A DNA stretch of 64,000 bases, taken from Mobula hypostoma (lineage: Eukaryota). The notes below the pieces were generated by a model, which was given only the letters and a program-made list of their open reading frames with translations, was not told the DNA's origin and ran no database searches. How positions within the stretch are numbered: position 1 is the first letter of the stretch; every line of letters begins with the position of its first letter. Of this stretch, positions 9,308 through 63,448 are shown piece after piece. The translations under genes and the position numbers were made by a program. The stretch covers positions 8,866,001-8,930,000 of the forward strand of contig NC_086097.1 of assembly GCF_963921235.1 (NCBI RefSeq), read 5' to 3'.

Positions 9308-9376
9308 AACTGAAGGAAGAGTGAGTAAGGGATTTATATCCAACTTTCAAATCCCTTACTCACTCTTCCTTCAGTT

Positions 9377-13475: not shown

Positions 13476-13754
13476 ATGTAATTATTTTCATTCCTTTATT
13501 CCTCATTTTTCCTTTTTTTGCATTATTTGCTTTTTTGATATCTTTACGCTGCTGCAAGACATCAAATTTTACATCATATGTCAGTGATAATATATTTGAT
13601 TCTGATTCAATGAGATAAATTCTGAAGAGATGCATCTCTTCTCCTGTTCTGTTTTCACAATAGAGGAAGGATATCTCCTTGCTCTTGTAGTGGGTAATAA
13701 CACAGCAATTGTCTTGATTACATAATACATAGCAAAACAATTAACTACCTGAGT

Positions 13755-13912
13755 TAATGAAGGATGCAGAAGGAGCAACACCCTATATTCCGTCTGGGTA
13801 GCCTCCAAGCTGATGACATGAATATTGATTTCTCCTTCTTGTTAAAAAATTCTCTCTTCCCTCCTCTCTTTCTCTATTCCCCACTTTGGCTTCTTCACCT
13901 CTTCTCACCTTG
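13755..13912 (+). mobile_element. PLE GIY-YIG C-terminal fragment
   Basis: EQHPIFRLGSLQADDMNIDFS matches the endonuclease end EQHLIFRLGSLQPDGTNIDFS at 53444-53662. Confidence 0.75.
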
Positions 13913-14859: not shown

Positions 14860-15078
14860 ATCTGCCAGTGCTGGAAATAGAGAGTAATTCACACAAAAAA
14901 GCTGGATGAACTCAGCAGGTCAGGCAGCGTCTATGGAACTGAATAAAGAGTCAATGTTTCAGGCCAAGACCCTTCATCAGGACCCAGATGAAGGTCTCAG
15001 CCCGACACATCAACTGTTTACTCTTTTTATAGATGCTACCTGACCCGCTGAGGTCCTCCAGCATTTTGTGTGTGATGC
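14860..15078. mobile_element. PLE-derived fold-back element, diverged
   Basis: Inverted arms meet at ~14983; the minus arm reads gtcCTGATGAagggtcttggcctGAAAcattgact. Confidence 0.8.
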
Positions 15079-32543: not shown

Positions 32544-32878
32544 GAGCAACACGTGCAAAATGCTGGAGAAACTCAGCAGGTCAGGCAGCATCTATGGAAA
32601 TGAATAAACAGTCGACATTTTGGGCCGAGACCCTTTATCAAGGACTATCAGACGTCACCTGAGATGCTGCAGATACTGGAAATCGTGAGTAACACATACA
32701 AAATACTGGAGGAACTCAGCAGGTCAGGCAGCAACTATGGAGGGGAATAAACAGCTGATATTTTGGGCTGAGTACTGTCCAAACAAATATTCCATTCATA
32801 GATGCAGCCCAACCTGCTGAATTTCCCCAGTGTTTTGTGTGAGTTGCTCCAAATTTCCAGCATCAGCTATTTGTTCTT
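32544..32878. mobile_element. Cluster of PLE arms: one single arm plus one fold-back
   Basis: Two tandem minus arms (32544-32646, 32662-32772) followed by a plus arm (~32790-32878). Hammerheads are decayed. Confidence 0.75.
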
Positions 32879-34718: not shown

Positions 34719-34869
34719 ACTGTATAAGAGTGAAAAATTTACAAATGTGATCTCCCATTCTACCTAACAATAACCTTGCTCAATATAATCTGAAGTATTA
34801 AAGACTTGACATCCATTTTTATTAAAGCTCACTCCCGAACACACGCTCTCAAATACTAAGGATTCTCAC

Positions 34870-35599
34870 AATACACATCAAAGTTGCTGGTGAATGCAGC
34901 AGGCCAGGAAGCATCTCTAGGAAGAGGTACAGTTGATGTTTCGGGATGAGACACTTCGTCAGAACTAACTGAAGAAAGAGATAGTAAGAGATTTGAAAGT
35001 GGGAGGGGGAGGGAGAGATCCAAAATGATAGGAGAAAACAGGCAGGGGAGGGATGGAGCCAGGAGCTGGACAGGTGATTGGCAAAGGGGATATGAGAGGA
35101 TCACGGGACAGGAGGCCCAGGGAGAAAGAAAGGGCGGGGGGGTAAACCCAGAGGATGGGCAAGAGGTATAGTCAGAGGGACAGAGGGAGAAAAAGGAGAG
35201 AGAGAGAGAAAGAATGTGTGTGTATATAAATAAATAACAGATGGGGTACGAGGGGGAGGTGGGCATTAGCGGAAGTTAGAGAAGTCAATGCTCATGCCAT
35301 CAGGTTGGAGACTACCCAGACGGAATTGTTTCTCCAACCTGAGTGTGGCTTCATCTTTACAGTAGAGGAGGCTGTGGATAGACATGTCAGAATGGGAATG
35401 GGATGTGGAATTAAAATGTGTGGCCACTGGGAGATCCTGCTTACTCTGGCGGACAGAGCATAGGTGTTCAGCGAAACGATCTCCCAGTCTACGTCAGGTC
35501 TTGCCAATATATAGAAGGCCACATCGGGAGCACCAGACGCAGTATATCACCCCAGCCGACTCACAGGTGAAGTGTCGCCTCACCTGGAAGGACTGTCTG
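34870..35599 (-). mobile_element. 5'-truncated Neptune-like Penelope element: GIY-YIG pseudogene + 3' UTR + hammerhead
   Basis: My translation from ~35598: RQSFQVRRHFTCESAGVIYCVWCSRCGLLYIGKT*RRLGDRFAEHL...VATHFN...H...LRLEKQ/FRLGSLQPDGMSIDFSNFR*. 11 bp TSD aggattctcac (34859-34869, 35600-35610). Confidence 0.9.
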
Positions 35600-36169
35600 A
35601 GGATTCTCACTTTTTTTTGCCGATTAGTTCTGCTTTATTTTCACAATTTTGAAATTTCTCTCATCCAGAAGACTTAAAAATAGTTTTTAGGATCTGTTTC
35701 TTCCCAACACAGATTGTTGGGACAATTCCCACGGAATTTTCATAAAAATTTAACTCCACTTTCCAACAAAGTACACTATCCGTACATGTTCCATATGGTA
35801 GCATTTTATATCCATCTTCCTTCTTTGTATATTAGTCCTCTGACAGTGGTTCCTCTTAGTGGATTGAAATTGTCACCTCAGGCCCTTGAGTACAAATCAA
35901 AATTCAAGCAGGGTCAGCGTTTTCACAGTAGGAAAATCATACTTTTCAGGCACTGCTATTTTAGATGTTAGCAGGTCAGTGATGGTCTAGATTGGTCTGA
36001 CCTTCTGACCCAAGTACTTAAAAGGTCAAAAAGCATGAAGATGCACTTCTCAATGGTCAGGAACACAGCAAATATGAGAATCTTGTTGAACTGAATGGGT
36101 AAGGGACGTTAGAATCTCTTTATATTTCCACTTTTTGCCAGCATATTAGGTCAAGGATGTGTATTTAGC

Positions 36170-38602: not shown

Positions 38603-39179
38603 TATAAACAGAATTCACCATGGCAACCACTCAGGGTATTATTTTGTCAACCCTTCTGAATCATTTATTATCTGAAACTCATAACCCATGTCAATTTGAT
38701 CGACATAATTTTCCATTTTGATTTATCATCTCCATTACTTTTGTCTGATAGAGGCTTATTTGATATCCAACCAAAGGCAGCTGGTTGCTGGTTTGGAAAT
38801 AGAGGAGGGTTGAAGACAATGGGATTGGGCTGGAACACTGCAAAATAAATGGGATGGGTTTATATTATTGTGAAGATGGAGAGAAGAGACTGAAGTTTAC
38901 AAGAAGACTGGTTTACGAAGGCAAGGATGATTGGAACAAGAGAAGGAGCCAAATTCTTTTCCTCTTGACCACAAGAAATATTGATAGGTATTTTACCTGT
39001 TAGATTTATGAGATCCAACCACCCTTCAGTTGCTGAGTTTCCCCAAGCCCTGAGAAATCCAATGTGGCTGAACCATTTTCAGAATAACCACTGATATCAT
39101 TTGAGGCTGTAAATCAGAATTAACCATCAGGCAACCTTTTCTAAATCCTAGATTTAGTACAGTTTTAATTACATTTGAT

Positions 39180-39304
39180 AAACACGAGAAATTCTGCAGA
39201 TGCTGGAAATCCAGAGCAACACACACAAAATGCTGAAGGAATTCAGCAGGTCAGGCAAATGAATAAGCAGTCAACATTTTAGGCTGAGACCCTTCCTCAG
39301 GACC
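39180..39304 (-). mobile_element. Single PLE 3' arm with tail
   Basis: aaacacgagaaattctgcagatgctggaaatcc...gagacccttcctcaggac; truncated right at the 5' edge of the hammerhead. Confidence 0.8.
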
Positions 39305-48786: not shown

Positions 48787-48989
48787 ACAGGAATTCTGCA
48801 GATGCTGGAAATTCAAGCAACATACATCAAAGTTGCTGGTGAACGCAGCAGGCCAGGCAGCATCTCTAGGAAGAGGTACAGTTGACATTTCAGGCCTGAC
48901 GAAGGGTCTCGGCCTGAAACGTTGACTGTGCCTCTTCCTAGAGATGCTGCCTGGCCTGCTGCGTTCACCAGCAACTTTGATGTGTGTTG
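48787..48989. mobile_element. PLE-derived fold-back element, young
   Basis: Near-perfect arms; plus-strand core CTGACGAagggtctcggcctGAAAcgTTgact from 48896; 15 bp TSD ttccaattgcatgca (48772-48786, 48990-49004). Confidence 0.93.
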
Positions 48990-49733
48990 TTCCAATTGCA
49001 TGCAGCAGATAACTTGTTGCAGATTATAGGGAAAGTGAAGTGCTTAGACAATAAGACAATAAGTGCAAGACCACATCAAGGTAGATCTCGAGGCCTGCAG
49101 TCCATCTTATCATACTAGGGAACTGTTCAATAACCTTATAGCAGCAGGGAAGAAACTGTCCTAGAACCTGGTGGCATGTGCTTTCAGGCTTTTATATCTT
49201 CTGCCTGATGGGAAGGGGAGAGAAGAGAAAATGTCCCGGGTGGGTAAGATCTTTGACTTTATTGGCCCTTTTACTGAGGCAGTGAGGGGAGCAACCTTCT
49301 GAGCGGAAATAAAAATGTTCTTTCTTAGCCCCATCTTAAATGAGCAGACCCTCATTCTGATACTCAGCAGTGGGTCATGATTGATGAAGGAAGAGGTTGT
49401 TCAAGTGTTTGGCATGCTTTCATGCAATGGCACTCAACCATGCATGATGCCTTCAAGAAAGTGAGGAAAATAAACCTCAAAGTAAATTTTATTATCAAAG
49501 TACATGTCACCACGGACAATCCTGATTCCTTTTCCTGTGGGCATTATCAGCAAGTCTACAGAATAGTAACTATAACAGGATCAATGAAAGATCCAGTAAA
49601 GTGCAGAAGACAACCAACTGTGCAAATGCAAATATAAGTTAACAGTAATACATAACGAGAACATGAAATAACAAGATAAAGTGTTCTTAAAGTGAGATCA
49701 ATAGTTGTGGGAACATCCCAATGGATGGGGAAT

Positions 49734-49919
49734 ACAAAATACTCTGCAGGTGCTGGGGTCCAAGCAACACACACAACACGCTAGAGGAACTCAGCAGGTC
49801 GGGCAGCATCCGTGGAAATGAACAGTCAGCGTTTCGGACCAAGACCCTTCGTACGTTGACTGATCACTTCCACGGATGCTGCCCGACCTGCTGAGTTCCT
49901 CCAGCATGTTGTGCGTGGT
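49734..49919. mobile_element. PLE-derived fold-back element (second subfamily)
   Basis: Inverted arms; 16 bp TSD cca(a/g)tggatggggaat (49718-49733, 49920-49935). Confidence 0.9.
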
Positions 49920-50030
49920 CCAGTGGATGGGGAATCAGGTGCAGTTCAGAAGCCTGATTGTTGTGGGGTAGTAACTGTTCCTGATCCTGATAATGCAAAT
50001 CTTGAGGCTCTTGTATCTTCTATCTGATGG

Positions 50031-50153
50031 CAAGGGATCTGGCCCGAAACGTCGACTGATCGTTTCCACGGATGCTGCCCGACCTGCTGAGTTCCTCCAG
50101 CGTGTTGTGAGTGTTGCTTTGACCCCAGCATCTGCAGAGTATTTTGTGATTTT
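50031..50153 (+). mobile_element. Single PLE 3' arm beginning inside the hammerhead
   Basis: aagggatctggcccGAAAcgTCgactg...cagcatctgcagagtattttgtg. Confidence 0.85.
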
Positions 50154-50227
50154 AAAGTACATGACCTGGCTGGTGAGGGTGTCTGATGCTGCTTTCCTAC
50201 AACAGCGATTCATGTAGATTTTTTTTT

Positions 50228-50903
50228 AGATTAGATTATGAGGACACGCAGTCCTCTTTTATAGTCATTTAGTAATGCATGCATTAAGAAATGATACAAT
50301 GTTCCTCCAGAATGATATCACAGAAACACATGACAAACCAAGACTGAAAAATACTGACAAAAAACACATAATTATAACATACAGTTACAACAGTGCAAAG
50401 CAATACCGTAATTTGATAAAGAACAGACCATGGGCACGGTAAAAAAAAGTCTCAAAGTCTCTCAAAAGTCCCATCATCTCATGCAGATGGTTGAAGGGAG
50501 AAACTCTCCCTGCCATGAGCTTCCAGCACCACAAATTTGCCAACTCAGCATCTTGGAAGCACCCGAACACAGTCTGACTCTGAGTCCGTCTGAAAACTTC
50601 GAGCCTCCGACCAGCCCTCCGACACTGAGCACCGAGCACCATCTCTGCCGAGCGCTTCGACCCCGGCCCCGGGAACAGGCAATAGGCAAAGCCGAGGATT
50701 TGGGGCCTTCCCCTCCAGAGATTCTCGATCGCACAGTAGCAGTGGCAGCAAAGCAGGCATTTCAGAAGTTTCTCCAGATGTTCCTCCTGCTTCTCACGTC
50801 TGTCTCCATCAAGTCAGGATTGTGCACGGTACCTATTTAACAAATACAATATCATTTTAGAGTGGCCGAGCATGCTGCGTCGCCCCGCCATCCTCTCCTC
50901 CCC
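50228..50903 (-). mobile_element. Family A, copy 5
   Basis: Reverse complement; tail agattagattatGAGGACacgcaGTCCTC. Confidence 0.85.
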
Positions 50904-51564
50904 TATTTGTTCAATGGTTGGGAGGGCTTTCCCTGTGAGGTACTGGGCTGAGTCCACTACTTTTTGTAGGATTTTTCATTGAAAGGCTTTGGTGTTTTCA
51001 TACCAGCCATGATACAGCCAATCAATATACTCTCCACCATGTACCTATAGAAGTTTGTCAAAATTGTTGCTGTTGTGCTGAATCCCCGCAGTCTCCAAGG
51101 AAGTAGAGGTATTGCCGTACTTTCTTTGTAGTGGCGCTCAACATGCTGGATCCGGGACAGGTGCTCTGAAATAGTAACACCCAGGAATTGAAAGTTACTG
51201 ACCCTCTCTATCTCTCCACCATAAACAGTGGATCTTATTGTAGCAGGATCTCATTGTAGAATGAAAGATAAAATGTTACCTTAGACCCAAAACGTAAAAG
51301 ATAACAGCATCCTTAAATTATTTCTCAAACAGCAACAGGGACACATATTTTTAGCAGCCGCCCAAGAACCTTCCATAATGGAAGCAAGAGTATACTATGA
51401 TTTCTTCACCTGCCACTTCATTCAAGACAACCAACTGATCTTGGCCTCTGCTGATGACACTTCATTGATTGGCCTAATCTCAAATAATAACGAGGCAGCC
51501 TGCAGAGAAGAAGTCATCACCCGACACAGAAATGTCAAGAAAACAATCTCTCCCTCAGTGTTGC

Positions 51565-52895
51565 ATGGATAAGTCTGCTTTTGAAATCCCATCCCTGATT
51601 ACTATGTATCTACCTGGGAAGGCCATAATAGATGAAATACTTCTCCCATAACACTTTTACTACCGTAGATGCCCTCTGGCCCTTGGTAGGAAAAGCCTGA
51701 GCACATCTGGGATAGTGCTCTGTGACGACCAAGACATTCGCCGTGTTGCTGGCATTGGGTTCTATTGGCAGGAAATCCATACACACCAGTTCCACAGGCC
51801 CCACACTCTGCAAGAGGGACAAGGGAGCTGCGCGCATAGGCAGTGTCTTCTGCCATATGATCGAATGCACGACTTGCAGTATTCTTCGACCTCGGATTCC
51901 ACCCGGGGCCAGTAAAACCGGTGTCTGAGCAACCCATCAGTCTTTTCCACCCCCAGGTGTCCAGAATCATCAAGAAGTGATTTCAACGCAATCTTCCGAT
52001 ACTTCCCTGGCAGAACCAGCTGGCAACGCTGGGGTCGGTCTGGGGGTGACGTGACCCAGTGTAAGATCTAGTTCTGCAACTCCAACCAGGGCCATTCTCT
52101 CAGTAATGGAGGCACTGACACATGTTTCATCTTCTCCGCCTGAGCCACGTCTCCCTTTTCCACCGCTGACCAAATGGTACCAATGCCCAGATCATCTCGC
52201 TGAGCAGCAGCCACTTCCCCAGAGCTCAATTCCAGCAGCTGGTTTGTCTTCAGAGCAGTCAGGTTACAGTAAACTTGTGGAAAGGCGTCATCAGAGCTCT
52301 CAATTGATCCACCGTTCTCTGCTGCCCCTCCTTTCCCTCTGCCTTCACAGTGATGGCAAACTGACACATGGCCTTCACCCCAGGGGCAGAAACGCTTTCC
52401 CACTCCTCGGCCCTGACCAGTCCCTCATGCACCCATCGGGACAAAGCATCAGCATCAATGTTCCAGCTTCCCAGTCAGTACTTCACGCTGAAATCACAGG
52501 CAGACAACGTGCCAACCACTGATAGCCTGTGGCATCCAGTTTCACCGAGGTCAGGATAAGAAGTTAGAAGGTTGTTGTCCGTCCTCACCTCAAACTTGGC
52601 CCTGTAGAGGTAGTCACTCAGCTTATCCATCATCGCCCATTTCAATGCCAGAAATTCCAACTTGTGCGTGGGATAGTTTTTCTCGGAGGGCTCCAGACTC
52701 CGGCTGTCAAACGCAACGGGCCTCAACCCGGAGCCCTGATCCTGATACAGGACGCCCCTTAAACCTTCTCAGCTTGCACCTGTGTGCAGTATATATGGCG
52801 ATCGGGGGTCTGCAAAAGCCAGTACAGGCGCTTGGGTCAGCAGCTCCTTCAGTGACTGAAAGGCCTCCTGACGTTTTGCATCCCAGCTTGGTCCA
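51565..52895 (-). pseudogene. Gypsy/Ty3 pol remnant (RNase H, then integrase)
   Basis: RPVAFDSRSLEPSEKNYPTHKLEFLALKWA...EVRTDNN; GHLGVEKT...RFYWPR...YCKSC; ELVCMDFL; IHSNQGWDF. The RH-before-INT order indicates Gypsy. Frameshifted, no adjacent LTRs. Confidence 0.92.
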
Positions 52896-53064
52896 ACATT
52901 TCTCTCATTGGATAGCCCCCACATTCCAAAACCCCGTTATCTCTATCATAACCCAAACATTGCTGCTACAGGGAAACCATTACATTAGCAGTGAAACATT
53001 ACAGAGAGGCCATTACATTAGCGATGAAGCCTTACAGCATGTTACAAAGAAAAGCTGGATAATA

Positions 53065-54005
53065 TTCAAGCAACACACATAAAATGCTGGAGGAACTTAG
53101 CAGGCCAGGCAATATCTATGGAAAACAGTACAGTTGACATTTTGGGCTGAGATCCTTCTGCAGGACTGGAGGGAAAGAAAATGAGAAGTAGATTTATAAG
53201 GTGGGGGGAGTGTACGGAGAGACACAAGGTGATAGGTGAAACCAGGAAAGGGAGGGATGATGTAAAAGAGCTGGGTAGGTGATTGGTGAAAGAAATACAG
53301 GGCTGGGGAAAGGAGAATCTGATAAGAAAGGACAGAAGGCCATGGAAGAAAGAAAAGGGGGAAGGAACACCAGAGGGAGGCGATGGGCAGGCAAGGAGAT
53401 AAGGTGAGAGAGGGGAAAGGGGAGGGGAATGGGGGATGAGGCATTACCAGAAGTTCGAGAAATCAATGTTCGTGCCATCAGGTTGGAGGCTACCTAGACG
53501 GAATATAAGATGTTGTTCTTCCAACCTGAGTGTGGCCTCATCACAACAGGCCATAGATTGACATATCAGAATGGGAATGGGAAGTGGAATTAAAATGGTG
53601 GCCATTGGAAGGTCCCTCTTCTTGTGGATGGAGCATATGTGCTCGGCAAAGCAGTCTCCCAATTTATGTTGGGTCTCACCGATATATAGTAGGCCACACT
53701 GGGAGCACTAGATACAATATACGACTTCTACAGACTTATAGGTAGTGTCGCCTCACCTGGAAGGATTGTTTGGGGCCCTGAATGACAGTGAGGGAGTAGG
53801 TGTAGGGGCAGGTGTATCACTTGTTCTGCTTGCAAGGATAAGTGCCAGGAGGGAGATCACTGGGGAGGGTTGAATGGACAAGGGAGTCATGCAGGGAGCT
53901 ATTTGTGCAGAAAGCAGAAAATGGGGGTGAAGGAAAGATGTGCTTGGTGGTGGGATCCTGTTGGAGATGGCTGAAGTTCTGGAGAATTATGCAGAGGCTG
54001 GTGGG
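53065..54005 (-). mobile_element. Neptune-like PLE, longest fragment (Cys linker + GIY-YIG + 3' UTR)
   Basis: Linker TYPCKQNK*YTCPY (~53800-53843); ORF 53444-53662 GDCFAEH...LRLEEQHLIFRLGSLQPDG; decayed hammerhead at ~53131-53168. Confidence 0.88.
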
Positions 54006-54280
54006 GTCATATGCCTTGTCCTCTTATACTGAGGAAAGCACACAAAAAACAGTCAAAATTGAAGTTCAAAGAATGAACACATATTGGAGGAACATAATGA
54101 ACAATTGAGGTAATTACTACATAATTTTAAACCAACTTTGATGCAGTTAGTTCAAAACTTAAAATAAACAGCAAACTATTTAATAGAAAAGATTAAACAA
54201 AATGAGGTAAATAGATATTTTCTACTCTGCCAGCAATTATTAACTTCTTTAAAAATGGTCCCCTAACACCTCTGACTAAA

Positions 54281-54416
54281 AACAAATTAGTCTGAAGATG
54301 CTGGGGTCAAAGCTACACTCGGAGTCCTGACGAAGGGTTCCGGCCCGAAACGTCAACCGATCTTTTCCACGGATGCTGCCCGACCTGCTGAGTTCCTCCA
54401 GTGTGTTGTGAGTGTT
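54281..54416. mobile_element. Short PLE fold-back element with an intact hammerhead core on +
   Basis: agtc CTGACGA a GGG ttccgg CCC GAAA cg TC aacc (54323-54358); 13 bp TSD acctctgactaaa (54268-54280, 54417-54429). Confidence 0.9.
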
Positions 54417-54556
54417 ACCTCTGACTAAAGCAACTGAGAGACACATAGAGGAATTAAAACTTTGTAAATGGAATTTTATCCTAATATCTTTTCAGATATA
54501 ATAGTCATAAGTTATCAAACATATCAGGTCTTGAAAAATAGCAGTGTTATATTTAC

Positions 54557-55025
54557 TCCATAAGACCATAAAATATAAGAGCAGAATTAGGCCTTTTGAC
54601 TCATCAAGCCTGCTCTACCATTCCAACATAGCTGATTTATTATTCCTCTCAACCCAATTCTCCTGCTTCTCCCCATATCATTTCATGCTCTGACTAATCA
54701 AGAACCTGTCAACCTCCACCTTAAGGATACCCAATGACTTGGCCTCCACAGCCATCTGTGGCGATGAATTCCACAGATTCACTACCCTCTGGCTAAAGAA
54801 ATTCCTGCTCTTCTCTATTCTAAAGGGATCACCCTTTGGTCCTGGATTCTCCCACTATAGGACACATTCTCTCCACAGACACTCTACTTAGGCTTTTCAA
54901 AAGTCAGTTGGTTTCAATAAGATCCCTCCCTCATTCTTTAATCTCCAGCCAATACAGGCCCTTGGCCTTCAATCACTTCTCATGTGCCATCCTTTCACAG
55001 GACCATTGCTGTGAACCTCCTCTCA
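54557..55025 (-). mobile_element. CR1 3' fragment
   Basis: Similar to 5168-5520. Confidence 0.8.
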
Positions 55026-55364
55026 GGCTGAAGCAGGCGGGAACGATTAGTGTGCAACCTTCAACTACAATTGTTAATGGCAAATGGGATTTTGACTTAA
55101 AAAACAAACCTATCACACACAAAGTTTTGCTGTCAGGAAAGTTGAGTTTATGTTCTTAAAAATTGGTTTCAACTTGAAATATCAATATTGTTTTTCTTTC
55201 CACAGATGCTGCGTGACACGCAGTGTGTTTCAAGCATTTTTAAAAAAATTTCGATAACATAACTTTAGATAACATCAGTGGATCATTAACAAATCGTTAA
55301 CTGAATTTATCATGGATATTTTTGGGGATTATGAAGTGATAGAAGAAGGGAAAGATATCCTAGT

Positions 55365-56372
55365 TCATTTATCGTTGATGACACAAATATTGTTGACAGA
55401 ATTTCAATTGTTAATGAGATGGCATACAGGAGAAAGATAGATCAGCTGGTTGAGAGGTGTCACAGCAATAATCCTGCACTCAACGTCAGTAGGACCAAAG
55501 AATTGATTATAGATTTCAGAAAGGGTAAGACGAGGGCAGACACACCAGTCTCATCGAGGGATCAGGAGTGGAAAGTGTGAGTTCCTGGGTGAGTTCAAGT
55601 TCCTGGGTGTGTGTCAACACCCCTGCGGATATATCCTGGGCCCAGTATATACTGTAGATGCAGCTCCAAAGATGACCTGACAGCGGATATATTTCACTTG
55701 GAGATTGAAGAGATTTGGTATGTTACTAAAGACACTTGTAAATTTCAACAGATATACCATGGAGAGCATTCTAACTGGCAAACATCACCCAGGACATGCT
55801 CTCTTGGGAATTTTGAAGAAGGTTATCAATATCGGAAATATTCGGAGAACAACTCTGGAGAGAGCAACAGAGCTGAGGATTCAGATCAATAATCCTACAA
55901 ATTTCTATAGATGTAATATGGAGAGCATTCTAACTGGTTGCATCACTACTTGGTATGGAGGGGCCATGGCACGGGAGCAGATAAAGCTGCAGGAGGATGA
56001 AAACTCAGTCAGCTCCATCACGGGCACTAGCCTTCCCAGCATCCAGGATATCTTCAAGGAGCGAAGCTTCAAAAAGGTGGCGTCCGTCACTAAGGACCCC
56101 CATCACCCAGGACATGTCCTCTTCTCATCGCTGCCATCAGAAAGGAGGTAGAGGAGTCTGAAGGCACACACTCAATGATTCTTCCCCTCTGCTATCAGGT
56201 ATCTGAATAGACATTGAACCAATGATCACAATCTCACTACTTTAGTTTCTCTTTTTCAACTACTTATTTGATCTAACTTTTTAAATATACAATATATATA
56301 TTTCTTATTCTAATTTACAGTTTTATTATTACGTATTGCAATGTACTGCTGCCACATAACAAGTTTCACAAC
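55365..56372 (+). mobile_element. Rex1/Babar-type RT and 3' fragments
   Basis: FYRCNMESILTGCITTWYG...KDPHHPGHVLFSSLPSERR. Confidence 0.8.
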
Positions 56373-56430
56373 ACACTATTACAGCTCGGGGCATTGGAAG
56401 TTGAAGGTCAATACTGACGTCATCTGTAAA

Positions 56431-56630
56431 AAGCACACACAAAATGCTGGAGGAACTCAGCAGGCCAGGCAGAATCTAAGGAAAAAGTCAACGTTTTGGG
56501 CCGAGACCCTTCAGCGAGACTGAAACGTCGACTGTACTCTTTTCCATAGATGCTACCTGGCCTGCTGAGTTCCTCTGGCATTTTGTGCGTGTTGCTTGGA
56601 TTTCCAGCATCTGCAGATTTTTTCTTGTTT
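56431..56630. mobile_element. PLE-derived fold-back element nested in a tRNA SINE (~56375-56862)
   Basis: Inverted arms; 12 bp TSD gtcatctgtaaa (56419-56430, 56631-56642). Confidence 0.9.
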
Positions 56631-58551
56631 GTCATCTGTAAAGAGTCTGTACATCCTCCTCATGGGATGCGTGGGTTTCCTCCGGGTGCTCCGGATTCCT
56701 CCCACAGTCCAAAGATGTACTGATTTGTAGGCTAATTGGTGATTATAAATTGCCCTATGATTAGGCTAGGGTTAAAAAGATGGGCTGCTGGATGGTGCAG
56801 CTTGTTTAACCAAAAAAGACTTGTTCCACGCTGTTTGTCTAAATAAAATAAGATTAAAATAAATGATTCCATGTGGATTTTAAATTCTGCAAAAGAGGAA
56901 TAATGCACAACAGATATAAAACGAACTTCCAGCTCAGTGCTGCTGTTTTTCATTTGGCACAGAATGAGAGTTCCTTCCTGATGTTCCCATTCAATACAGA
57001 GGAATTAATATAAATGCTGGATTGCACGGCTTGGCACACCATTATAAAATCAATAGGTCAAAAGAGAAATCTTAAACATGCTAAATACATTTTAGAACCA
57101 ATATTTTTGCCAAAATAGATTATTGGTCCAATACAAACTATTCAATTCCACAGATGTGCCTTGATCCAGTATATCACAATGCACATCAGTATAAGCTGAT
57201 GTTTGCTTGATTTCATGAGTTATATTCTGTTGTCAATTTCAACATGTAATCTGAAGTTACAATGTTAAATTATAGAAAACACTCGCCAGCCTATATTTAA
57301 TTATTGTGTCTCCAATTCCTGACGAGTTTGAGGTGAGCAAGACTATCCCCCCCCCCCCACGACCACATTCTAACTATTTTTTACAGGAACACCATTGAGA
57401 GTGTCCTGACCATCTGCTTCAATAAATCTTCATTACTTGTTTGTTTGCTAATCTTGCCTTTCTAGATACAGTTGCTGCCATTTGTAAGATCGTAAACAAG
57501 TTGTAAGTAAGCTAAATAATAGCTTGTTTAATTACTGACCATAAATGGAAGTCAGTCTTCAGTTCTTAAAATGTAAATGGTACATACTAATCAGTTTGAA
57601 GTTAAAACAAAGTATTGTCTATAGAACACCTTTCCCTTCTGCCATCTGATTCCTAAATGGACGTTGGATCTTTGGACACTACCTCACTTTTTTTTAATAT
57701 ACATTATTTCTGTTTTTGCATTAAAAAAAATCTATTCAATGTACGTAAATGATTTACTTGTTTATTTATTATCATTATTATCATAATTATTTCTATTTTA
57801 TTTATTTATTTTTTCCTGTCTGCTATATTACGTATTGCATTGAACTGCTGTTGCTAAGTTAACAAATTTCACATCACACGCTGGTGATAATAAACCTGAT
57901 TCTGATGCCCTATCTGTGCTAAGCAGGTGCCAGCTGATAGTGTCCTGTCTTGCTGCTTGAGAGATACAGTGTAAGGTAATGTGTTGTTTAATTAGGGTTG
58001 CTTCAAACAGATAAGCTGATTCTAAATTGTTCGGAGTTCAGGGAAGCTTGCAAAACAGATGACTAATTAGCATATTAAATAACTGATGCATTTATAGTTG
58101 GGAGTTTTATGAACTCAGGTAAGTTAGCTTTGGAGCACTAATTATGAAATGTGAACATTAAACTGAGGATTATGTCTCCAAAATGCATTTAGATAGTTTG
58201 TGCTAAAAGGGTACCTGAAGAAATATCACGTGTGTGTGAAACCACCCCAATGGGAAAGAAGCTGTATAAATGTAGAGAACAGTTTAAATTTATTAGGAAA
58301 GGGGTAACAAAACTTAAAGATCATGGAAGAAACACGGGATGAACTGGAATCCAGTCCTTTGGTTTGGTTTCTGCAACGGACTTGATCATCTGCATTGTGC
58401 TATGTCTTTGAAGTTTATAGGAATTGTACCTGTGGTTTTGAAATCCTTTGTACTTTGTGTTTTAAAAATGGTTTGTAATTGGAGAAGTTTAAGATGGAAA
58501 TCCTCTATCAGTTTTAAATGTGCTTGAACATATTGTTTGGATTTATTTGTT

Positions 58552-59450
58552 CAGGTAGTGTTGAAGAAACAGAGAGCCTGCAGAGAGACTTAGATAGTTT
58601 AGAGGAATGGGCAAAGAAGTGGCAAATGAAATACAAAGTTGGAAAGTGTATGTTCATGCACTTTGGTGGAAGAAATAAACAGGAAGACTCTTATTTAGAT
58701 GGGGAGAGAATTCAAACTGCAGAGGTGCAAAGGGACTTGGGAGTCCTTGTGCAGGATACGCTAAAGGCTAACCTCCAGGTTGAGTTGGTGATGAAGAAGG
58801 CAAAAACAATGTTGGCATTCGTTTCTAGGGGTATAGAATATAAGAGCAGGGATGTGATGTTGAGGCTCTATAAGGCACTCGTGGGATCACACTTGGAGTA
58901 TTGTATGCAGTTTAGGGCTCCTTATTTTAGAAAGGATATACTGACTTTAGGGAGGGGTCAGAGAAGATTCACGAGAATGATTCCAGGAATGAAAGGGTTA
59001 TTGTATGAGGAACATCTGACAGCTCTTGGTCTGTATTCCCTGGTGTTCAGGAGAATGAGGGGGCATCTCATAGAAACATTCCGAATGTTAAAAGGCCTAA
59101 ACAGATTAGATATGGCAAAGTTATTTCCCATGGTAGGGGAGTCTCGGACAAGAGGGCACGACTTCAGAATTGAAGGACGTCCATTTAGAACAGAGATGCG
59201 GAAAACTACTTTCGTCGGAGGGTGGTAAATCTCTGGAGTTTGTTGCCACAAGCAGCTGTGGAGCCCAAGTCATTGGATGTATTTTATGCAGAGATAGGTA
59301 GGTTCCTGATCAGCCAGGGCATCAAAGGGTATGGGGAGAAAGCAGGGGAGTGTGGATGACTGGAAGAATTGGATCAGCCCATGATTGAATGGTGGAGCAG
59401 ACTAGATAGGCTGAATGGTCCACTTCTGCTCCTATACCTTATGGTCTTTT
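58552..59450 (+). mobile_element. 5'-truncated CR1 LINE
   Basis: ORF 58518-59228 (LQRDLDSLEEWAKKWQMKY...RDLGVLV...LYKALV...TRGH); tail ccttatggtctt. Confidence 0.92.
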
Positions 59451-60117
59451 GGGATTTAAATTGTATCACTGAAAATAAATGAACTGTGCGTTAAACTACT
59501 TTGTTATCGGGAGATATCTTCTCCTTGGTTGGAAGAGGAGACCCACCACTCAAATAGTGGATATTGGCAGTTAAGCTCACCATGAAGAATAAACAGGGAA
59601 GTGAATTAGCCTTTGAAGATTGGTAGTACAGTATTATCTCTCTTTAATTAGAGTACTCATGGCTATTTATATCAGTTGGAGCTTACGGTCATTGTTTGAG
59701 TTTAGCACTTTCCAGTCAGCAAGCACAAAATCATAGCACTGCATCACATTCTGGAATGGGAATTGCAAGGCATCTGACCACAAGACCCTACTAAGGATTA
59801 TGAGGACTGCCAAGCGGACCATCACGGCTTCTCTTCCACCCTTCTGAGATATTTATCATCTGGCTGGAGGTACCAAAGCATTAGTACAAGCATTTTTAGA
59901 ATGGGAAACAGTTTTTTCCACAGACCATGAAACTACTGAACTACCTGTCACCACCCTGGCCATATCACGTATGAAGCACCAATAGCATTATACTGTCTAC
60001 TTTTTTAACTTATGTTGCAAAAGCACCTTATTATTTGTTAATTTATTTGTGGTGATACTAATTTATGTTTTGTGTGTGAGTTATATGTACTGTATTGTGC
60101 ACCTTGGGCCAGAGGAA

Positions 60118-60287
60118 GCAGGAGAATATCTGCAGATGCTGAAAATCCGAGCAAAACACACAAAATGCTGGAAGAACTCAGCAGGCCAGGCAGCATCTAT
60201 GGAAAAAAGATGTCGGTCCGAAATGTCAACTGTACTTTTCTCCATAGGTGCTGCCTGGGCTGCTGAGTTCCTCCAGCATTTTGAGTT
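60118..60287. mobile_element. PLE-derived fold-back element
   Basis: Inverted arms around ~60210; decayed flanking duplication ggccagaggaa / ggtctggaggaa. Confidence 0.82.
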
Positions 60288-60578
60288 GGTCTGGAGGAAT
60301 GTTGTTTTGCTTGGCGGTATACATGTGTATGGTTGAATGACAATAAACAAACTTGAAAAGCATCAGCAAGACATGTACTCTGTTCATGACACAATTCAAA
60401 CTGCAAGCATTATGTGAGAAAAAGTGAATAAACAACAAGTTTCTGCAATTTCAAAACATATGGAAAAGTGGGTGAGAAAAAATATTTAGTGAAATCTTAC
60501 CAGTTTTCTACTGGGTTACAGAGGAGCAATAATTTTATTAAGTAGAATCTTAGGCTTAACACCCAAAATAGTTTAAAT

Positions 60579-60670
60579 CAGGGGTTCCCAACTTTTTTTA
60601 TGCCATGAACCCCTACCATTAACCGAGGGGGACACCAAGTTATACTTCACTTTCAAGTTGCGAACCATTG
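60579..60670. mobile_element. Tiny hAT-like MITE
   Basis: caggggttcccaac terminus; homologous to 20158-20239. Confidence 0.55.
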
Positions 60671-62165
60671 GCCTAAAAGTTTGAGCGGGGATAACTTCAC
60701 TCACCCCAATACTGAACTGATTGTACATCCTATAGACTCACTTTCAAGGACTCATGTTCTCAATATTTATTGCTTATTTATATATTATTATTATTATCTT
60801 TTTTTTATATTTGCAGTTTGTTGTCTTTTCCACATTGGTTGTCTATCCACCTTTGATGAGTGTGGATTTGTGCTGATTCTATTGTGTTTCTTTTCCATTT
60901 CTGTGAATGCCTGCAAGGAAATGGAAGTGACATATATGCACTTTGGTAATAAATTTACTTTGACCAACAAAAGCTTTCAAGCATGTCGCTCAGTGTGACA
61001 GAAGATCTTGAAAATGCAGTTCTTTGCAGGAACCATTACCTCAACTTGCAAGTTCAAGTGGAACGTCCAATGTCATTACATCAAGTCATCGTAGAGTCCT
61101 GATGGATGAGTCGATAGTAGTAGGGAATATTGAAACTGATAACGTTCTCCCAAAAGAAAGGTAGAAATTAAATTTACATAGCATTCCTTCTAGTTGAAAA
61201 TAATTTGTTACTTTTAAATGACAAGGTATTTGGGGGAAAGTTCTTCAAAATCGTCACCTGCACTAGCTTTTTGGGCAAAATTAAGACGAACAGGAGAAGA
61301 AACTGTATCACCCATGCTACGAAGGACCATGTGACATTAAAACTCTAGTTACCCAGAGAGGTTCTCTTCCTCTAAATTACGTTTGGGTTCACTCTGGCAG
61401 TAGGATCAGCAGAGGACAGAGAGCTGAGTATGGAAATGGGGATGGGAGTTGAAATGGCCTATAACCAGGAGCTCAAGATTTCCATAGGATTGAGAGCGTC
61501 ACTCAAGTGAATGCACTACTGGTCAAGTGTGCTTCCGCACTGATCACTAAAAGTGTAATGTCATTTACACGTTACTCCTGATGAAGGTTCTCAGCCCAAA
61601 ACATCACTTGTTCATTTCCCTCTGTAAGTGCTGCCTGACCTGCGTTTTTGTGTTCCAGATTTCCTGCAACAGTTGAATCTTTTGTGGACAGGAGGGTAGT
61701 CAAAACTGACCAACGTATCACCAGCTCCAAACTACCCGCCATCAAGGACATATGTACAGAAAGGTGCCAGAAAAAGGCCAGCAACGTTATAAAGGATCCC
61801 ACTCACCCTGCTTAGGGACTGTCTGTCCCACTCCCATCAGGGAGCAGGTTATGTGGCATCAATGTCAGGACCACCAGACTGAAGAATAGTTACTTTCCCC
61901 AAGCAGTAAGGTTGAACAACTCCCCCGCCCACTAACCCACCCCACTGCACCTCCACGACCACTACTGTATCATTCCTGCCAGTGTCACCGTTTCTGCTGC
62001 ATTGGATCCAGGGTAACAATTATTTTGTTCTCCTTTACACTTGTGTACTGGAAATGACATGAAACAAACTACTCTTGAATCTTGTTTGTACACGTGGTTG
62101 TCCCAGATGTTGGACTTCTGCACACCCTGCCCAGTTACTGGTGAAAACAACAAGTAGATATACAA

Positions 62166-62354
62166 CACACATCAAAGTTGCTGGTGAATGCAGCAGGCCA
62201 GGCAGCATCTCTAGGAAGAGGTACAGTCGACGTTTCGGGCCAGGACCTCGACTGTACCTCTTCCTAGAGATGCTGCCTGGCCGGATGCATTCACCAGCAA
62301 CTTTTATGTGTGTTGCTTGAAATTCCAGCATCTGCAGATTTCCTCGTGTTTAAC
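62166..62354. mobile_element. PLE-derived fold-back element, young
   Basis: Near-perfect arms; TSD tagatatacaa (62155-62165, 62355-62365). Confidence 0.92.
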
Positions 62355-63345
62355 TAGATATACAAGTTTTTGTAGAGAATTCATTTATGATAAAAACTTG
62401 TTTTGTCATTAATGATTCCCTTGCCAACTCAATATTCACAAATCTGGAGATTGTGATAACAACTTACTATAAATATTTATAGCACAATTCCTAATCTAAC
62501 GAAAGATGTTTACGTTTCACAACATTGGTTCAACAGGCAAGGACCTCAGCTAATGATGAACCTGATAATTTTGCCAGTGCTGAAATGGCACATCTTGAGG
62601 AGCAAGACATCTCTGAGATAACAGTAGAAGAGTGACAAGAGTTATATCTTAATCAATGGTTTGCACCACTGAGCTCAACAGTGGGAGGCAGAGCAAATGC
62701 CCGAGTGCACATATCAGCTACAGTTCTCAAGAGCAGCAAAGACAGAGAAGAGGAATTTAAGCAGGAGTCAGATGGATAAAAGGCTGGTTATGAATGGAAC
62801 AAGGACAGAGACAAAACACTGTCATGAGGGAGAAAGAGAGATGAATATTACATTGCAAAAGAGATTTCCTTTTAAATATGATCTTGATATTTGAGAAACT
62901 GCTGCAAGTCAGCAGTAATATTAGCAGTAAAAATGCTGGAATCTATAATCAAGGATGATAACAGAGGATGTTGAAAATATAGCATTGAGCTGAGTCAGCA
63001 AAAGAAGATTATGACGAGCTAATCTGCCGTATTTCTTCAAGAACAAGTCTCGTAGAATAGACAAGGGATGGATTTAAATGTTGAAACGGCCTTTCAATTA
63101 GGTCCTATATGAGATTGGTCAGCAAAGTTAGAGTGCATGGCATTCAAGTTCAAGTTGAATGTTATTGTCGTCTAACTATCCATATACAACCAAATGAAAC
63201 AATGTTCCTCTGGACCACAGTTTACCCACAAATCATATGTTACAGACAGCACATAAAACATTTCCACAAATAAGTTAGCAAAATATAACGCAAAATGCAT
63301 GTAGCGAGCAGCAAAGGTAAACAGAAAACAGTTCAGTAAACAGTC

Positions 63346-63448
63346 CTGATGTCCTGATGAAGGGTCTGGGCCCTAAACATCGAATGTATGTTCCCATCCA
63401 TACATGTTGCCTAACCTGCTGAGCTCCTCCAGCATTTTGAGTGTATTG
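63346..63448 (+). mobile_element. Single PLE arm starting at the hammerhead
   Basis: gtcCTGATGAagggtctgggccctaaacatcg...; 12 bp TSD cagtaaacagtc (63334-63345, 63449-63460). Confidence 0.85.

What the first reader, a model, noticed from the sequence alone, without database searches (positions are those of the whole stretch)
48787..63448. Fold-back and truncation points differ per copy but cluster in the ribozyme
The inner ends of the arms fall in or just beside the ~36 nt hammerhead in most copies. At 48787 the join is at ttcagg|cctgacga. At 49734 it is cccttcgt|acgttgact, with the right arm starting at the ACGU palindrome. At 62166 the right arm starts tcgactg, within 2 nt of the predicted cut. 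Joins at 56431 and 60118 fall in or near stem II. The single arms at 39180, 50031 and 63346 also start at the ribozyme. Inference: each hairpin was made de novo during insertion, not copied from one master palindrome. Ribozyme cleavage or structure would then set where reverse transcription stops and switches template, a direct footprint of ribozyme function in PLE integration.
Basis: partly seen in the sequence, partly recalled or inferred. Interest (0 to 1): 0.7.

Follow-up and report, generated by a model that had tools for sequence, protein, structure and literature searches.

The report
Penelope-like retroelement fold-back insertions
These are short head-to-head double copies of the tail end of a Penelope-like jumping gene, and their inner ends do pile up at its small self-cutting RNA motif, though at the motif's upstream edge and not at the point where it cuts.

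Summary

Each hairpin is one integration:
- 10-19 nt target-site duplications flank whole hairpins.
- All close inverted pairs are head-to-head.
- 19 of 20 scorable hairpins carry the known 30-35 nt PLE "tail" on exactly one arm.

Clustering holds in an independent 300 kb sample. There, 19 of 24 short insertions end inside the hammerhead.

The peak is not at the cut. It lies 27-33 nt upstream, at the 5' edge of helix I: 20 of 39 events fall there and 0 of 39 lie within 2 nt of the cut. Whole-genome counts for the young family (about 21,500 exact copies) lose 4.8% per nt at -28..-33. The baseline is about 1.1% per nt, and the cut gives about 1.9% per nt.

De novo hairpins are therefore supported; cleavage-defined stops are not. 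My best reading (odds about 0.45) is that many template RNAs begin there, at a TATA-like/initiator-like core promoter. A stop caused by ribozyme structure is not excluded.

The scan found the same fold-back PLE copies before, in this genome and in another.

The parts
48792..48992 (.). Fold-back insertion, family A. The minus-strand arm runs 48792-48896, carries the tail, and has its inner end at r-13. The plus-strand arm runs 48895-48992, lacks the tail, and has its inner end at r-29. The TSD ttccaattgcatgcaRcag lies at 48772-48790 and 48990-49008.
49734..49919 (.). Fold-back insertion, family C. The minus-strand arm carries the tail and ends at r-25. The plus-strand arm lacks the tail and starts at ACGT (r-5). 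A 16-nt TSD lies at 49718-49733 and 49920-49935.
50031..50150 (+). Single copy with tail. Its 5' end is about r-22. The call is ambiguous because 'aaggg' is shared with the target, which is another repeat.
53040..53800 (-). Long 5'-truncated PLE copy. It holds the GIY-YIG C-terminus (...VVYCI.CSQCGLLYIGET...IDFSNF*), a ~400 nt 3'UTR, a complete hammerhead (53131-53168) and a tail-less 3' end. It reads through the ribozyme.
54281..54416 (.). Inverted 3' tail piece (54281-54320, minus strand, r+55..+100) joined to a plus-strand arm that starts at r-32 (54323) and ends without a tail. The arms overlap by only ~8 nt, so this looks like twin priming. A 13-nt TSD lies at 54268-54280 and 54417-54429.
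56434..56630 (.). Fold-back insertion, family B. The minus-strand arm lacks the tail and has its inner end at about r-31. The plus-strand arm carries the tail and has its inner end at r-10. A 15-nt TSD lies at 56419-56433 and 56631-56645.
60112..60283 (.). Fold-back insertion. The minus-strand arm carries the tail and has its inner end at r+7. The plus-strand arm lacks the tail and has its inner end at about r-12.
61571..61643 (+). Short fragment covering r-30..+37: a hammerhead plus the start of the tail. It is old and has no TSD.
62166..62351 (.). Fold-back insertion, family A. The minus-strand arm lacks the tail and has its inner end at r-19. The plus-strand arm carries the tail and starts at tcgactg (r-2). 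A 14-nt TSD lies at 62152-62165 and 62352-62365.
63346..63446 (+). Single copy without tail. Its 5' end is at r-31, with an 8-nt duplication of gtcctgat. The TSD cagtaaacagtc lies at 63334-63345 and 63449-63460 and ends in the helix I sequence cagtc (microhomology).
39175..39303 (-). Single copy with tail. Its 5' end is at r-31. No clear TSD.
746..986 (.). Inner ends are at r-31 (arm with tail) and r-24 (arm without tail).
9211..9507 (.). Fold-back insertion, family A. Its centre lies 27-37 nt upstream of the ribozyme (inner ends r-60 and r-70, with a 4-nt filler). A 16-nt TSD is present. Both arms hold complete hammerheads.
14862..15078 (.). Fold-back insertion. Inner ends are at r-31 and r-28/-29, making it nearly a perfect palindrome. 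A 10-nt TSD is present.
32545..32870 (.). A single copy (32545-32650, minus strand, 5' end at r-32) lies next to a fold-back (32655-32870, inner ends r-16 and r+15). This is the only hairpin with a tail on both arms.
34869..35602 (-). Long family A copy, 5' truncated at about r-668. It holds the GIY-YIG C-terminus, 3'UTR, hammerhead and a tail-less end.
13191..13910 (-). Long family B copy reading through the ribozyme. At about 13770 it is joined to an inverted PLE segment (13773-13910).

Best explanation
The repeat is the 3' terminal (pseudo-LTR) part of canonical endonuclease-bearing Penelope-like elements. It consists of a 3'UTR, a minimal type-I hammerhead, then a ~70 nt terminal region with an optional 30-35 nt 'tail'.

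Shown:
- Each hairpin is a single integration event. It is not a copy of a master palindrome, and it is not two hits at one site.
- The inner ends concentrate in a zone at the 5' edge of the ribozyme: r-27..-33 in the older families and r-22..-39 in the young family. They do not concentrate at the scissile bond or inside the ribozyme.

Known from the literature:
- PLE protein nicks and extends both target strands.
- It starts reverse transcription internally at two adjacent sites, and the stretch between those sites is the tail.

Inferred:
- Many template RNAs begin just upstream of the hammerhead. They would be driven by a core promoter in the pseudo-LTR: a TATA-like box about 30 nt upstream of an initiator-like CCAGTCC/TCAGTTAGTCC.
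- cDNAs primed at the nearby internal start sites would then run off after only 100-140 nt. When both target strands are extended, the two run-off cDNAs are joined head to head, with variable trimming or small fillers.
- That would give an outer end near -30 and a scattered second end.
- The ribozyme marks the spot because it lies at the very start of the transcript, not because it cuts.
For: Identity:
- GIY-YIG C-termini occur in the long copies.
- Locus L010 holds a 3.5 kb unit with reverse-transcriptase and GIY-YIG frames, a 357-nt pseudo-LTR and a 12-nt TSD.
- The search returned 103 relatives; the longer ones (about 850-950 aa) carry PF00078, and 11 of the 103 also carry PF01541.
- The hammerhead core is at least 90% conserved. 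84% of pair cells are paired, against 19-44% when the partner is slid.

One event per hairpin:
- TSDs of 10-19 nt flank 16 hairpins, against 0 of 39 control windows.
- The tail is on exactly one arm in 19 of 20 scorable hairpins, P = 1e-5.
- There are 17 short head-to-head pairs plus 5 further ones, and 0 true tail-to-tail pairs.

Peak:
- 11 of 24 (sample) and 9 of 15 (window) outer ends fall in the 7-nt window -33..-27, P = 1e-8 each.
- Whole-genome nested exact counts are 21551, 20328, 19155, 17604, 16361, 13933, 10384, 8924 and 8365 for strings starting at 0, -3, -9, -15, -21, -27, -33, -39 and -45.
- The corresponding losses are 1.9, 1.0, 1.4, 1.2, 2.6, 4.8, 2.5 and 1.1% per nt.
- About 4670 of 16361 copies (28.5%) end in -22..-39.

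RNA 5' end:
- Tandem-type joints in sequencing contigs return to r-32/-31. These are 1714->1605 with one extra G, 1852->1605 in three runs, and 1852->1607.
- The centre of hairpin L001 holds a piece of the tail end next to r-27, as expected from a template jump at an RNA end.
- A perfect palindrome with both arms ending at A-32 exists at C1:2546793-2546886.
- An A/T-rich box at r-67..-58 keeps its position across families A, B and C, while the flanks diverge.

Literature:
- Both strands are nicked and extended, initiation is internal at two sites that define the tail, and hammerhead mutants do not change insertion (PMC11167929, main text read).
- An inverted 5'-truncated neighbour and a one-sided tail are described (PMC8557442, passages read).
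Against: - No direct RNA 5'-end data exist. No listed run is on record as RNA, and only contigs could be laid.
- The one full-length copy examined starts at r-291 of its upstream pseudo-LTR, not at -32. A test of 5' pseudo-LTR extents by pattern lists was inconclusive.
- In the young family the zone is broad (-22..-44 in 12 of 15 listed hairpins), which is wide for one start site.
- The same sequence (pyrimidine tract + CAG) also looks like a 3' splice site. [quoted passage not shown] The start there lies 46 nt upstream of a 75-nt intron (PMC4209133 and PMC2377424, passages read).
- The strongest loose end at r-32 in the laid contigs is partly a homology edge between families.
- Arm ends in the 364 kb sample are my own readings, good to about +-2 nt.
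Confidence: 0.5

Rival explanations
1. Ribozyme structure or a bound protein sets the ends. Reverse transcriptase, or the dimeric RNP, tends to fall off or switch template as it leaves the folded (possibly dimeric, protein-assisted) hammerhead. The ends would then pile up at its 5' edge on any template, whatever the RNA's true 5' end.
For: - The peak hugs the ribozyme's boundary in three families whose upstream sequences differ.
- The zone is broad (-22..-39) in the young family.
- The PAc hammerhead is protein-assisted and lies close to the protein's binding and initiation region (PMC11167929, main text read).
- PLE minimal hammerheads are thought to act as dimers (PMC4209133, abstract and passages read).
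Against: - The enzyme has already copied the whole ribozyme when it reaches -28..-33. A structural block should act at the 3' side of a helix.
- The interior of the ribozyme shows baseline loss: 1.0-1.4% per nt from -3 to -21.
- About half of the young copies (8365 of 16361) read on past -45.
- Tandem joints that return to -32, one with an extra G, look like jumps from an RNA end.
- Hammerhead mutants did not change insertion size in vitro (PMC11167929).
Confidence: 0.25
2. Hammerhead self-cleavage produces the RNA 5' end, so cDNAs stop and fold back at the scissile bond.
For: - A few ends lie near the cut: 62163 right arm (-2), 49734 right arm (-5), the L013 6596 partner (0), L030 3580 (-5) and L012 (+4/+6).
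- Genome-wide there is a small excess of about 2% (about 480 of 21551) across 0 -> -3.
Against: - 0 of 39 outer ends lie within 2 nt of the cut.
- Most arms contain 10-33 nt upstream of the cut, which a cleaved RNA cannot template.
- The loss across the cut is 1.9% per nt and that step includes a CpG. The loss at -28..-33 is 4.8% per nt.
- In vitro, cleavage-dead mutants insert normally, and no RNA-seq reads began or ended at the PAc cut site (PMC11167929).
Confidence: 0.05
3. Post-insertion decay. Hairpins begin as perfect palindromes, and later centre deletions create the different, asymmetric centres, because palindromes are unstable.
For: - Near-perfect centres exist: 14901 (-31/-28), L006a (-30/-30), L026c (-28/-28) and C1:2546793-2546886 (-32/-32).
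- Some arms carry internal deletions of stem II (L008 4034, L030 45).
- The second arm end is widely scattered, from -30 to +55.
Against: - It cannot explain single copies with TSDs that start at -31 (63346).
- It cannot explain the one-sided shortening with the outer end kept at about -30.
- It cannot explain fillers derived from other parts of the element (L001, L025).
- It cannot explain the very unequal long hairpins (L007: -140 against -636).
- Young hairpins of family A, which is about 93-100% identical over the tail, already differ in their centres.
Confidence: 0.15

Closest known systems
Canonical EN+ Penelope-like element insertion units: pseudo-LTR, adjoining inverted 5'-truncated copy, one-sided 30-40 bp tail (Craig et al. 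2021, PMC8557442, passages read; Evgen'ev & Arkhipova 2005, recalled)
   Same: - Relatives have the RT + C-terminal GIY-YIG architecture.
- Partial-tandem pseudo-LTR (L010).
- Heavy 5' truncation.
- Head-to-head inverted copies.
- A 30-35 nt tail at one end only.
- Variable TSDs.
- Hammerhead in the pseudo-LTR.
   Different: - Most copies here are extreme. Both arms are only 70-140 nt, so the insertion is a bare hairpin without a body.
- The position of the inner ends relative to the hammerhead is quantified here. I found no such mapping in the passages I read.
PAc (Poseidon of Anolis carolinensis) in vitro system (Frangieh et al. 2024, PMC11167929, main text read)
   Same: - The ribozyme lies about 70-110 nt upstream of the reverse-transcription start sites.
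- Two adjacent start sites would explain ends with and without the tail.
- Extension of both target strands would explain head-to-head pairs.
- Cleavage is not needed for insertion.
   Different: - Nothing here is biochemical.
- The paper reports no difference in start site between top and bottom strands. Here 19 of 20 hairpins use one site per arm.
- The ORF start within the ribozyme, as in PAc, was not found here.
Minimal dimeric hammerheads of metazoan PLEs (Cervera & De la Pena 2014, PMC4209133, abstract, discussion and passages read)
   Same: - CUGAnGA and GAAA boxes.
- An extra base between positions 9 and 10.1.
- A G10.1-C11.1 pair.
- A 1-bp helix III with the palindromic ACGU.
- Many solitary motifs, and pairs on opposite strands 100-700 bp apart.
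   Different: - Self-cleavage was not tested.
- Rfam models do not detect it.
- No compensatory changes were seen in 46 copies.
L1 twin priming (5' inversion); recalled, and PMC2912911 seen in a search listing only
   Same: - Two cDNAs are primed from the two target strands and joined in the middle.
- The junction sits inside one TSD-flanked insertion.
- The copy at 54277-54440 has this layout.
   Different: - In twin priming the two parts cover different stretches of one RNA.
- In 19 of 20 hairpins here both arms cover the same stretch.
D. virilis Penelope regulatory region (Schostak et al. 2008, PMC2377424, passages read; Cervera 2014)
   Same: - The promoter and transcript start lie in the pseudo-LTR shortly upstream of the hammerhead.
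[quoted passage not shown]
- A 34-37 bp terminal repeat corresponds to the tail.
   Different: - In D. virilis the landmark is the 3' end of a 75-nt intron, and the start lies 46 nt further upstream.
- That promoter is TATA-less.
- Here a start site is only inferred from motifs.
Animal non-LTR retrozymes (Li et al. 2026 preprint, 10.64898/2026.07.22.740005, abstract and one section read)
   Same: - Short non-autonomous hammerhead-bearing sequences derived from PLE pseudo-LTRs.
- Tandem arrays of 262-435 nt units exist elsewhere in this genome.
   Different: - The copies in the window are dispersed singles and inverted pairs, not tandem arrays.

Membership tests
Penelope-like elements (EN+, C-terminal GIY-YIG) | Single ORF with a telomerase-like RT followed by a GIY-YIG endonuclease | tested here: met
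   - Translations show RT motifs and ...GVIYCVRCSRCSLLYI..T...IDFSNF*.
- Of the 103 relatives found, the longer ones (about 850-950 aa) carry PF00078, and 11 of the 103 also carry PF01541.
- Caveat: Pfam on the decayed frames themselves gave nothing at threshold. The only hit was GIY-YIG at E 0.11 and 13.3 bits, against a cut-off of 22.6.
Penelope-like elements (EN+, C-terminal GIY-YIG) | Partial-tandem pseudo-LTR | tested here: met
   In L010, r-291..+66 is repeated 3512 nt apart at 92% identity, inside a 12-nt TSD. Only one full-length copy was examined.
Penelope-like elements (EN+, C-terminal GIY-YIG) | Optional 30-40 bp tail at one end; adjoining inverted 5'-truncated copy | tested here: met
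   The tail is on exactly one arm in 19 of 20 scorable hairpins. There are 22 head-to-head pairs and 0 true tail-to-tail pairs in 364 kb.
Minimal type-I hammerhead of PLEs | Conserved core CUGAnGA ... GAAA ... UH, with helices I and II, an extra base before helix II, and a short palindromic helix III | tested here: met
   - Alignment of 46 copies: core columns are at least 90% conserved.
- Helix I is 5 bp (77% paired), helix II 4 bp (90% paired), and the A15.1-U16.1 pair is 98% paired.
- 84% of cells are paired, against 19-44% when the partner is slid.
Minimal type-I hammerhead of PLEs | Compensatory base changes supporting the fold | tested here: inconclusive
   Only 2 pairs show a change on both sides, which is no better than shuffles. 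The copies are too alike and are decaying.
Minimal type-I hammerhead of PLEs | Self-cleavage | not testable with these tools
Many old copies carry G12->A or C11.1->T, consistent with CpG decay.
Rfam hammerhead families | Score at or above gathering threshold | tested here: not met
   There was no hammerhead match at gathering score in the 64 kb window. There was none at E<=10 in 36000-64000.
L1-type twin priming | Inverted and direct parts cover adjacent, non-overlapping stretches of the RNA | tested here: not met
   The arms overlap over 50-130 nt in 19 of 20 hairpins. Only 54277-54440 fits, with about 8 nt of overlap.
Non-LTR retrozymes | Head-to-tail tandem arrays of hammerhead units | tested here: not met
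   There are none in the window. Arrays were seen elsewhere in the genome only as regular spacings of a pattern.

The most novel reading that the evidence does not exclude
- The 5' edge of the hammerhead is the cap site of PLE transcripts, so the ribozyme is the first structured element of the RNA.
- One RNA is copied twice by a dimeric RNP. One subunit starts at the inner site and the other at the outer site, one from each target strand.
- That would explain why 19 of 20 hairpins carry the tail on exactly one arm, and why both cDNAs run off at the same point.
- Every promoter-bearing pseudo-LTR, including dead truncated copies, would then keep seeding 100-140 nt hairpin insertions.
- The ribozyme's role would be tied to the transcript's 5' end, for example by removing the cap, and not to releasing units from multimers.
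Probability: 0.3. Interest if true: 0.65.

Novelty: new member of a known kind. Interest (0 to 1): 0.45.

Why it matters
What PLE hammerheads do, and how PLEs build their odd tandem and inverted insertions, are open questions.

This genome offers about 20,000 young copies in which the ends can be read base by base. The result separates two ideas that are usually lumped together:
- The ribozyme region does mark where copies end.
- The cut site does not.

If the peak is the transcript start, three things follow:
- It locates the PLE promoter in a vertebrate.
- It explains the flood of dead-on-arrival hairpin copies.
- Together with the one-tail-per-hairpin rule, it gives a testable picture of two coupled reverse-transcription starts.

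If instead the peak is a structural stop, it would be the first genomic footprint of the folded ribozyme acting on reverse transcription.

For annotation, these hairpins should not be called miRNA precursors or new fold-back elements.

Tried and rejected
- **Rfam.** No hammerhead at gathering score or at E<=10. The weak hits to miRNA and other families (mir-3926 E 1e-4, mir-181, Plastid-psbJ-4) only reflect the long hairpins.
- **Pfam.** Nothing at threshold on 13 window frames or on 3 L010 frames. PDB sequence search found nothing.
- **Automatic end calls.** Lenient BLAST over-extends and strict BLAST breaks at the variable +5..+15 stretch. I therefore read the ends from the print and checked them with a position-weight scan, which over-extends beyond -33.
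- **Partner arm as closest relative.** It was the best or tied-best match for only 3 of 40 arms. That is expected for star-like decay over a 51-nt stretch, so this is no evidence either way.
- **ORF start at the ATG at r+19.** Rejected. It is out of frame with the main ORF, and a conserved TGA lies in the tail.
- **RNA evidence.** No RNA holder was listed. Two runs guessed to be RNA were laid as contigs. Contig depth and ends cannot show RNA starts.
- **The loose end 'before 1605'.** It ranks first in three of the four runs and second in the fourth, but it is partly a homology edge between families. The consensus of the loose letters is the family B 3'UTR, at agreement 0.42-0.51.
- **Extent of the 5' pseudo-LTR in body-bearing copies.** Cross-reading the pattern lists was inconclusive. 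Of 6 copies testable at -33, 1 matched, and exact-match survival is too low to interpret misses.
- **Snap-back self-priming with the tailed arm as primary cDNA.** Rejected. The longer arm is the tailed one in about 7 hairpins and the tail-less one in about 8.
- **Spliced-RNA origin of the -30 boundary.** No recurrent intron-sized skip ending at 1604-1606 was listed among the joints (42 joints were not shown).

Full report
**What is there**

The window lies in a 3.48 Gb eukaryotic assembly. BLAST of one arm against the window finds 26 matching pieces. They belong to about 19 insertions of one repeat across the whole 64 kb, not only in 48787-63448.

Four copies are long: 13191, 19110, 34869 and 53068. 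Three of them translate into the C-terminus of a GIY-YIG endonuclease followed by a stop. About 400 nt of 3'UTR, the ribozyme motif and a terminal stretch follow.

In a fetched locus (L010) a near-complete 3.5 kb unit is bounded by a 12-nt target-site duplication (TSD). It carries reverse-transcriptase and GIY-YIG frames, broken by frameshifts. It also repeats r-291..+66 at both ends, which is a pseudo-LTR.

Pfam does not reach threshold on the decayed frames (GIY-YIG at E 0.11 only). A search with the 612-aa piece returned 103 relatives. The longer ones, about 850-950 aa, carry the reverse-transcriptase family, and 11 of the 103 also carry the GIY-YIG family.

This is a canonical endonuclease-bearing Penelope-like element (PLE), in at least three families that I call A (young), B and C.

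**The ribozyme**

I set r0 as the first base 3' of the predicted cut. The motif reads CAGTC (helix I, -33..-29), CTGAnGA, a bulged A, GGGT-CTCG-GCCC (helix II), GAAA, then CGTC|GACTG.

In 46 aligned copies:
- The core is at least 90% conserved.
- 84% of pair cells are standard pairs, against 19-44% when the partners are slid.
- There is no compensatory variation.

Helix III is a single A-U pair around CG, giving the palindrome ACGT. These are the traits described for minimal, probably dimeric PLE hammerheads (PMC4209133). Rfam does not detect the motif. Cleavage activity could not be tested.

**Check of the observation**

The details are in the observation field.

To test chance and ascertainment I fetched 30 stretches of 10 kb at fixed positions on four contigs. 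I mapped 83 arms in the combined 364 kb. Ends were read from the aligned print and cross-checked with a position-weight scan. BLAST end calls were too noisy to use.

I dropped two poor rows from the counts of outer ends (L028 7579 and the second arm of L008b). Seventeen long events of the sample (5' end at or beyond -140) were also excluded.

| Outer 5' end of short insertions | Sample | Window |
|---|---|---|
| in -33..-27 | 11 of 24 | 9 of 15 |
| in -26..+4 | 8 | 5 |
| in -100..-34 | 3 | 1 |
| beyond +4 | 2 | 0 |
| within 2 nt of the cut | 0 | 0 |

So the clustering replicates (P about 1e-8 for the 7-nt window).

**Whole-genome test**

Pattern search returns whole counts. I counted nested exact strings of a natural family A copy, all ending at r+14. 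Reversed-pattern controls gave 0.

| String starts at | Count | Loss per nt from previous step |
|---|---|---|
| 0 | 21551 | - |
| -3 | 20328 | 1.9% |
| -9 | 19155 | 1.0% |
| -15 | 17604 | 1.4% |
| -21 | 16361 | 1.2% |
| -27 | 13933 | 2.6% |
| -33 | 10384 | 4.8% |
| -39 | 8924 | 2.5% |
| -45 | 8365 | 1.1% |

- The three steps from -27 to -45 contain no CpG, so they can be compared directly.
- About 4670 of 16361 copies (28.5%) end between -22 and -39.
- The excess across the cut is about 2%.
The answer is a clear peak, not a smooth decay, but the peak is not at the cleavage site.
- The exact-match series mixes mutation with true ends. In my 14 long family A copies, 12 carry the exact -33..-28 string, so a common variant does not explain the drop.

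**Each hairpin is one event**

- TSDs of 10-19 nt flank the whole hairpin in 16 cases. None of 39 shifted control windows scored as high.
- All close inverted pairs are head-to-head. The two apparent tail-to-tail pairs are hairpins whose arms end beyond r0.
- Among the first 100 places of the 15-mer on contig 1, I counted 22 head-to-head pairs and no tail-to-tail pair.
- By my reading of the prints, both arms of each of the 20 pairs compared belong to the same family.
- In 19 of 20 scorable hairpins, exactly one arm carries the 30-35 nt terminal extension and the other stops at about +66..+70 (P about 1e-5). One hairpin (32660) has it on both arms. Two could not be scored.
- The one-sided tail and the inverted 5'-truncated neighbour are described features of PLEs (PMC8557442).
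- A purified Anolis PLE nicks and extends both target strands. It starts reverse transcription at two adjacent internal sites, and the interval between them is the tail (PMC11167929).
- A master palindrome that copies itself would give shared centres. It would not give this end structure.

**How the ends are set**

Cleavage is excluded as the main cause by the numbers above. It is also excluded by the fact that most arms contain sequence upstream of the cut.

A structural block is hard to fit with a peak that lies beyond the ribozyme in the direction of synthesis. It is also hard to fit with baseline loss inside the ribozyme.

Several observations point to a physical RNA 5' end near -30:
- Contig joints return to L010 1605/1607 (r-32/-30) from +77 and +215, one of them with a single extra G.
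- A fragment of the tail end sits in the centre of hairpin L001 beside r-27.
- A perfect palindrome has both arms ending at A-32.

Upstream, an A/T-rich box (TTATAAAT, TTTTTATT, TTTCAAAT, TTTAAAAT) keeps its place at -67..-58 in all three families. It sits in otherwise C-rich, diverging sequence. That puts it about 30 nt before CCA(-32)GTCC or TCA(-36)GTTA(-32)GTCC, which fit an initiator. The consensus YYANWYY is recalled, not from a call.

From this I infer the following:
- The pseudo-LTR promoter starts transcripts at the ribozyme's edge.
- cDNAs begun at the nearby internal start sites run off after 100-140 nt.
- Two such cDNAs from the two target strands are joined with variable trimming.
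- Long hairpins and long truncated copies come from longer, read-through RNAs.

This part is inference. I give it odds of about 0.45.

**Evidence against this inference**

- The only full-length copy I read starts at r-291.
- The family A zone is broad.
- The motif also looks like a 3' splice site. In D. virilis it is the intron's 3' end that meets helix I, with the transcript start further upstream (PMC4209133, PMC2377424).
- No RNA run was on record, and contigs cannot show RNA starts.
- In the two runs guessed to be RNA, summed contig depth rises 1.7-4 fold at r-32, against 1.2-1.5 fold in the two DNA runs. The tool warns that such depth cannot rank parts of a gene, so I treat this as no more than a hint.

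**Literature**

Three searches found no listed paper whose title or abstract, and no passage that I read in five papers, maps PLE truncation or inversion points against the hammerhead. The library lacks most subscription journals, and I did not open supplements. Such a plot may therefore exist unseen.

Earlier notes of this scan describe the same fold-back truncated PLE copies in this genome and in another. They agree with the identification given here.

**Verdict**

- The objects are ordinary for PLEs.
- The de novo origin is supported.
- The claimed footprint of ribozyme cleavage is not.
- Two details seem new and testable: the peak at the ribozyme's 5' edge, and the near-strict one-tail-per-hairpin rule.

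Noticed in passing
G000:C2:157816686-157817645; C1:1876905/1877246; C1:46047700/46048135; C2:122542725/122542987 (places only, not fetched): A 30-mer from the start of the PLE body recurs on one strand at regular spacings: 310 nt (four times), 341, 435 and 262 nt. This suggests head-to-tail arrays of short hammerhead-tail-body-start units, like retrozymes. Contig joints 1852->1605 on L010 fit a 248-nt unit that starts at r-32.
   Followed up: partly
window 54268-54429: One insertion has only its last ~40 nt (the tail) inverted, and this piece is placed at the 5' side of an otherwise direct copy. The overlap is about 8 nt and a 13-nt TSD is present. The layout resembles L1 twin priming.
   Followed up: partly
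window 63334-63460; L025 6178-6290; L025 3417-3655; L001 686-930: Small irregularities occur at the 5' junctions:
- an 8-nt duplication of gtcctgat (63346)
- a partial tandem repeat of r-15..+15 (L025)
- a 10-nt filler that is an inverted piece of the ribozyme box (L025)
- an 11-13 nt filler from the tail end (L001)

These look like template slips or jumps.
   Followed up: no
window 49734-50150; L006 1762-2245; L008 3709-4180; L020 7236-7770: Independent insertions of the family often lie within 150-300 nt of one another. This may reflect the preference for AT-rich sites or for existing copies that was reported for PAc.
   Followed up: no
window 48845-48962, 60171-60273, 49810-49875: Rfam at permissive threshold matches miRNA and other hairpin families here (mir-3926 at E 1e-4). 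These are the fold-back insertions, not miRNA genes. Transcribed copies would nonetheless form long perfect hairpins.
   Followed up: partly
alignment A1, e.g. window 53131-53168, 837-885: Many old copies read CCCAAAA or CCTGAAA where young ones read CCCGAAA. These are CpG transitions that change G12 or C11.1 of the ribozyme, so most old copies are probably catalytically dead.
   Followed up: no
window 49140-49260 and 49990-50030: Another repeat family (…cttttatatcttctgcctgatgggaagggga…) occurs twice. The copy at 50031 is inserted into one of these and shares 'aaggg' with it at the 5' junction.
   Followed up: no
window 13773-13910 and 19363-19502: Two long PLE copies are joined to inverted PLE segments several hundred nt upstream of the ribozyme. 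Long hairpins in the sample have centres at -140/-636 (L007), -357/-297 (L009) and -568/-575 (L014).
   Followed up: partly
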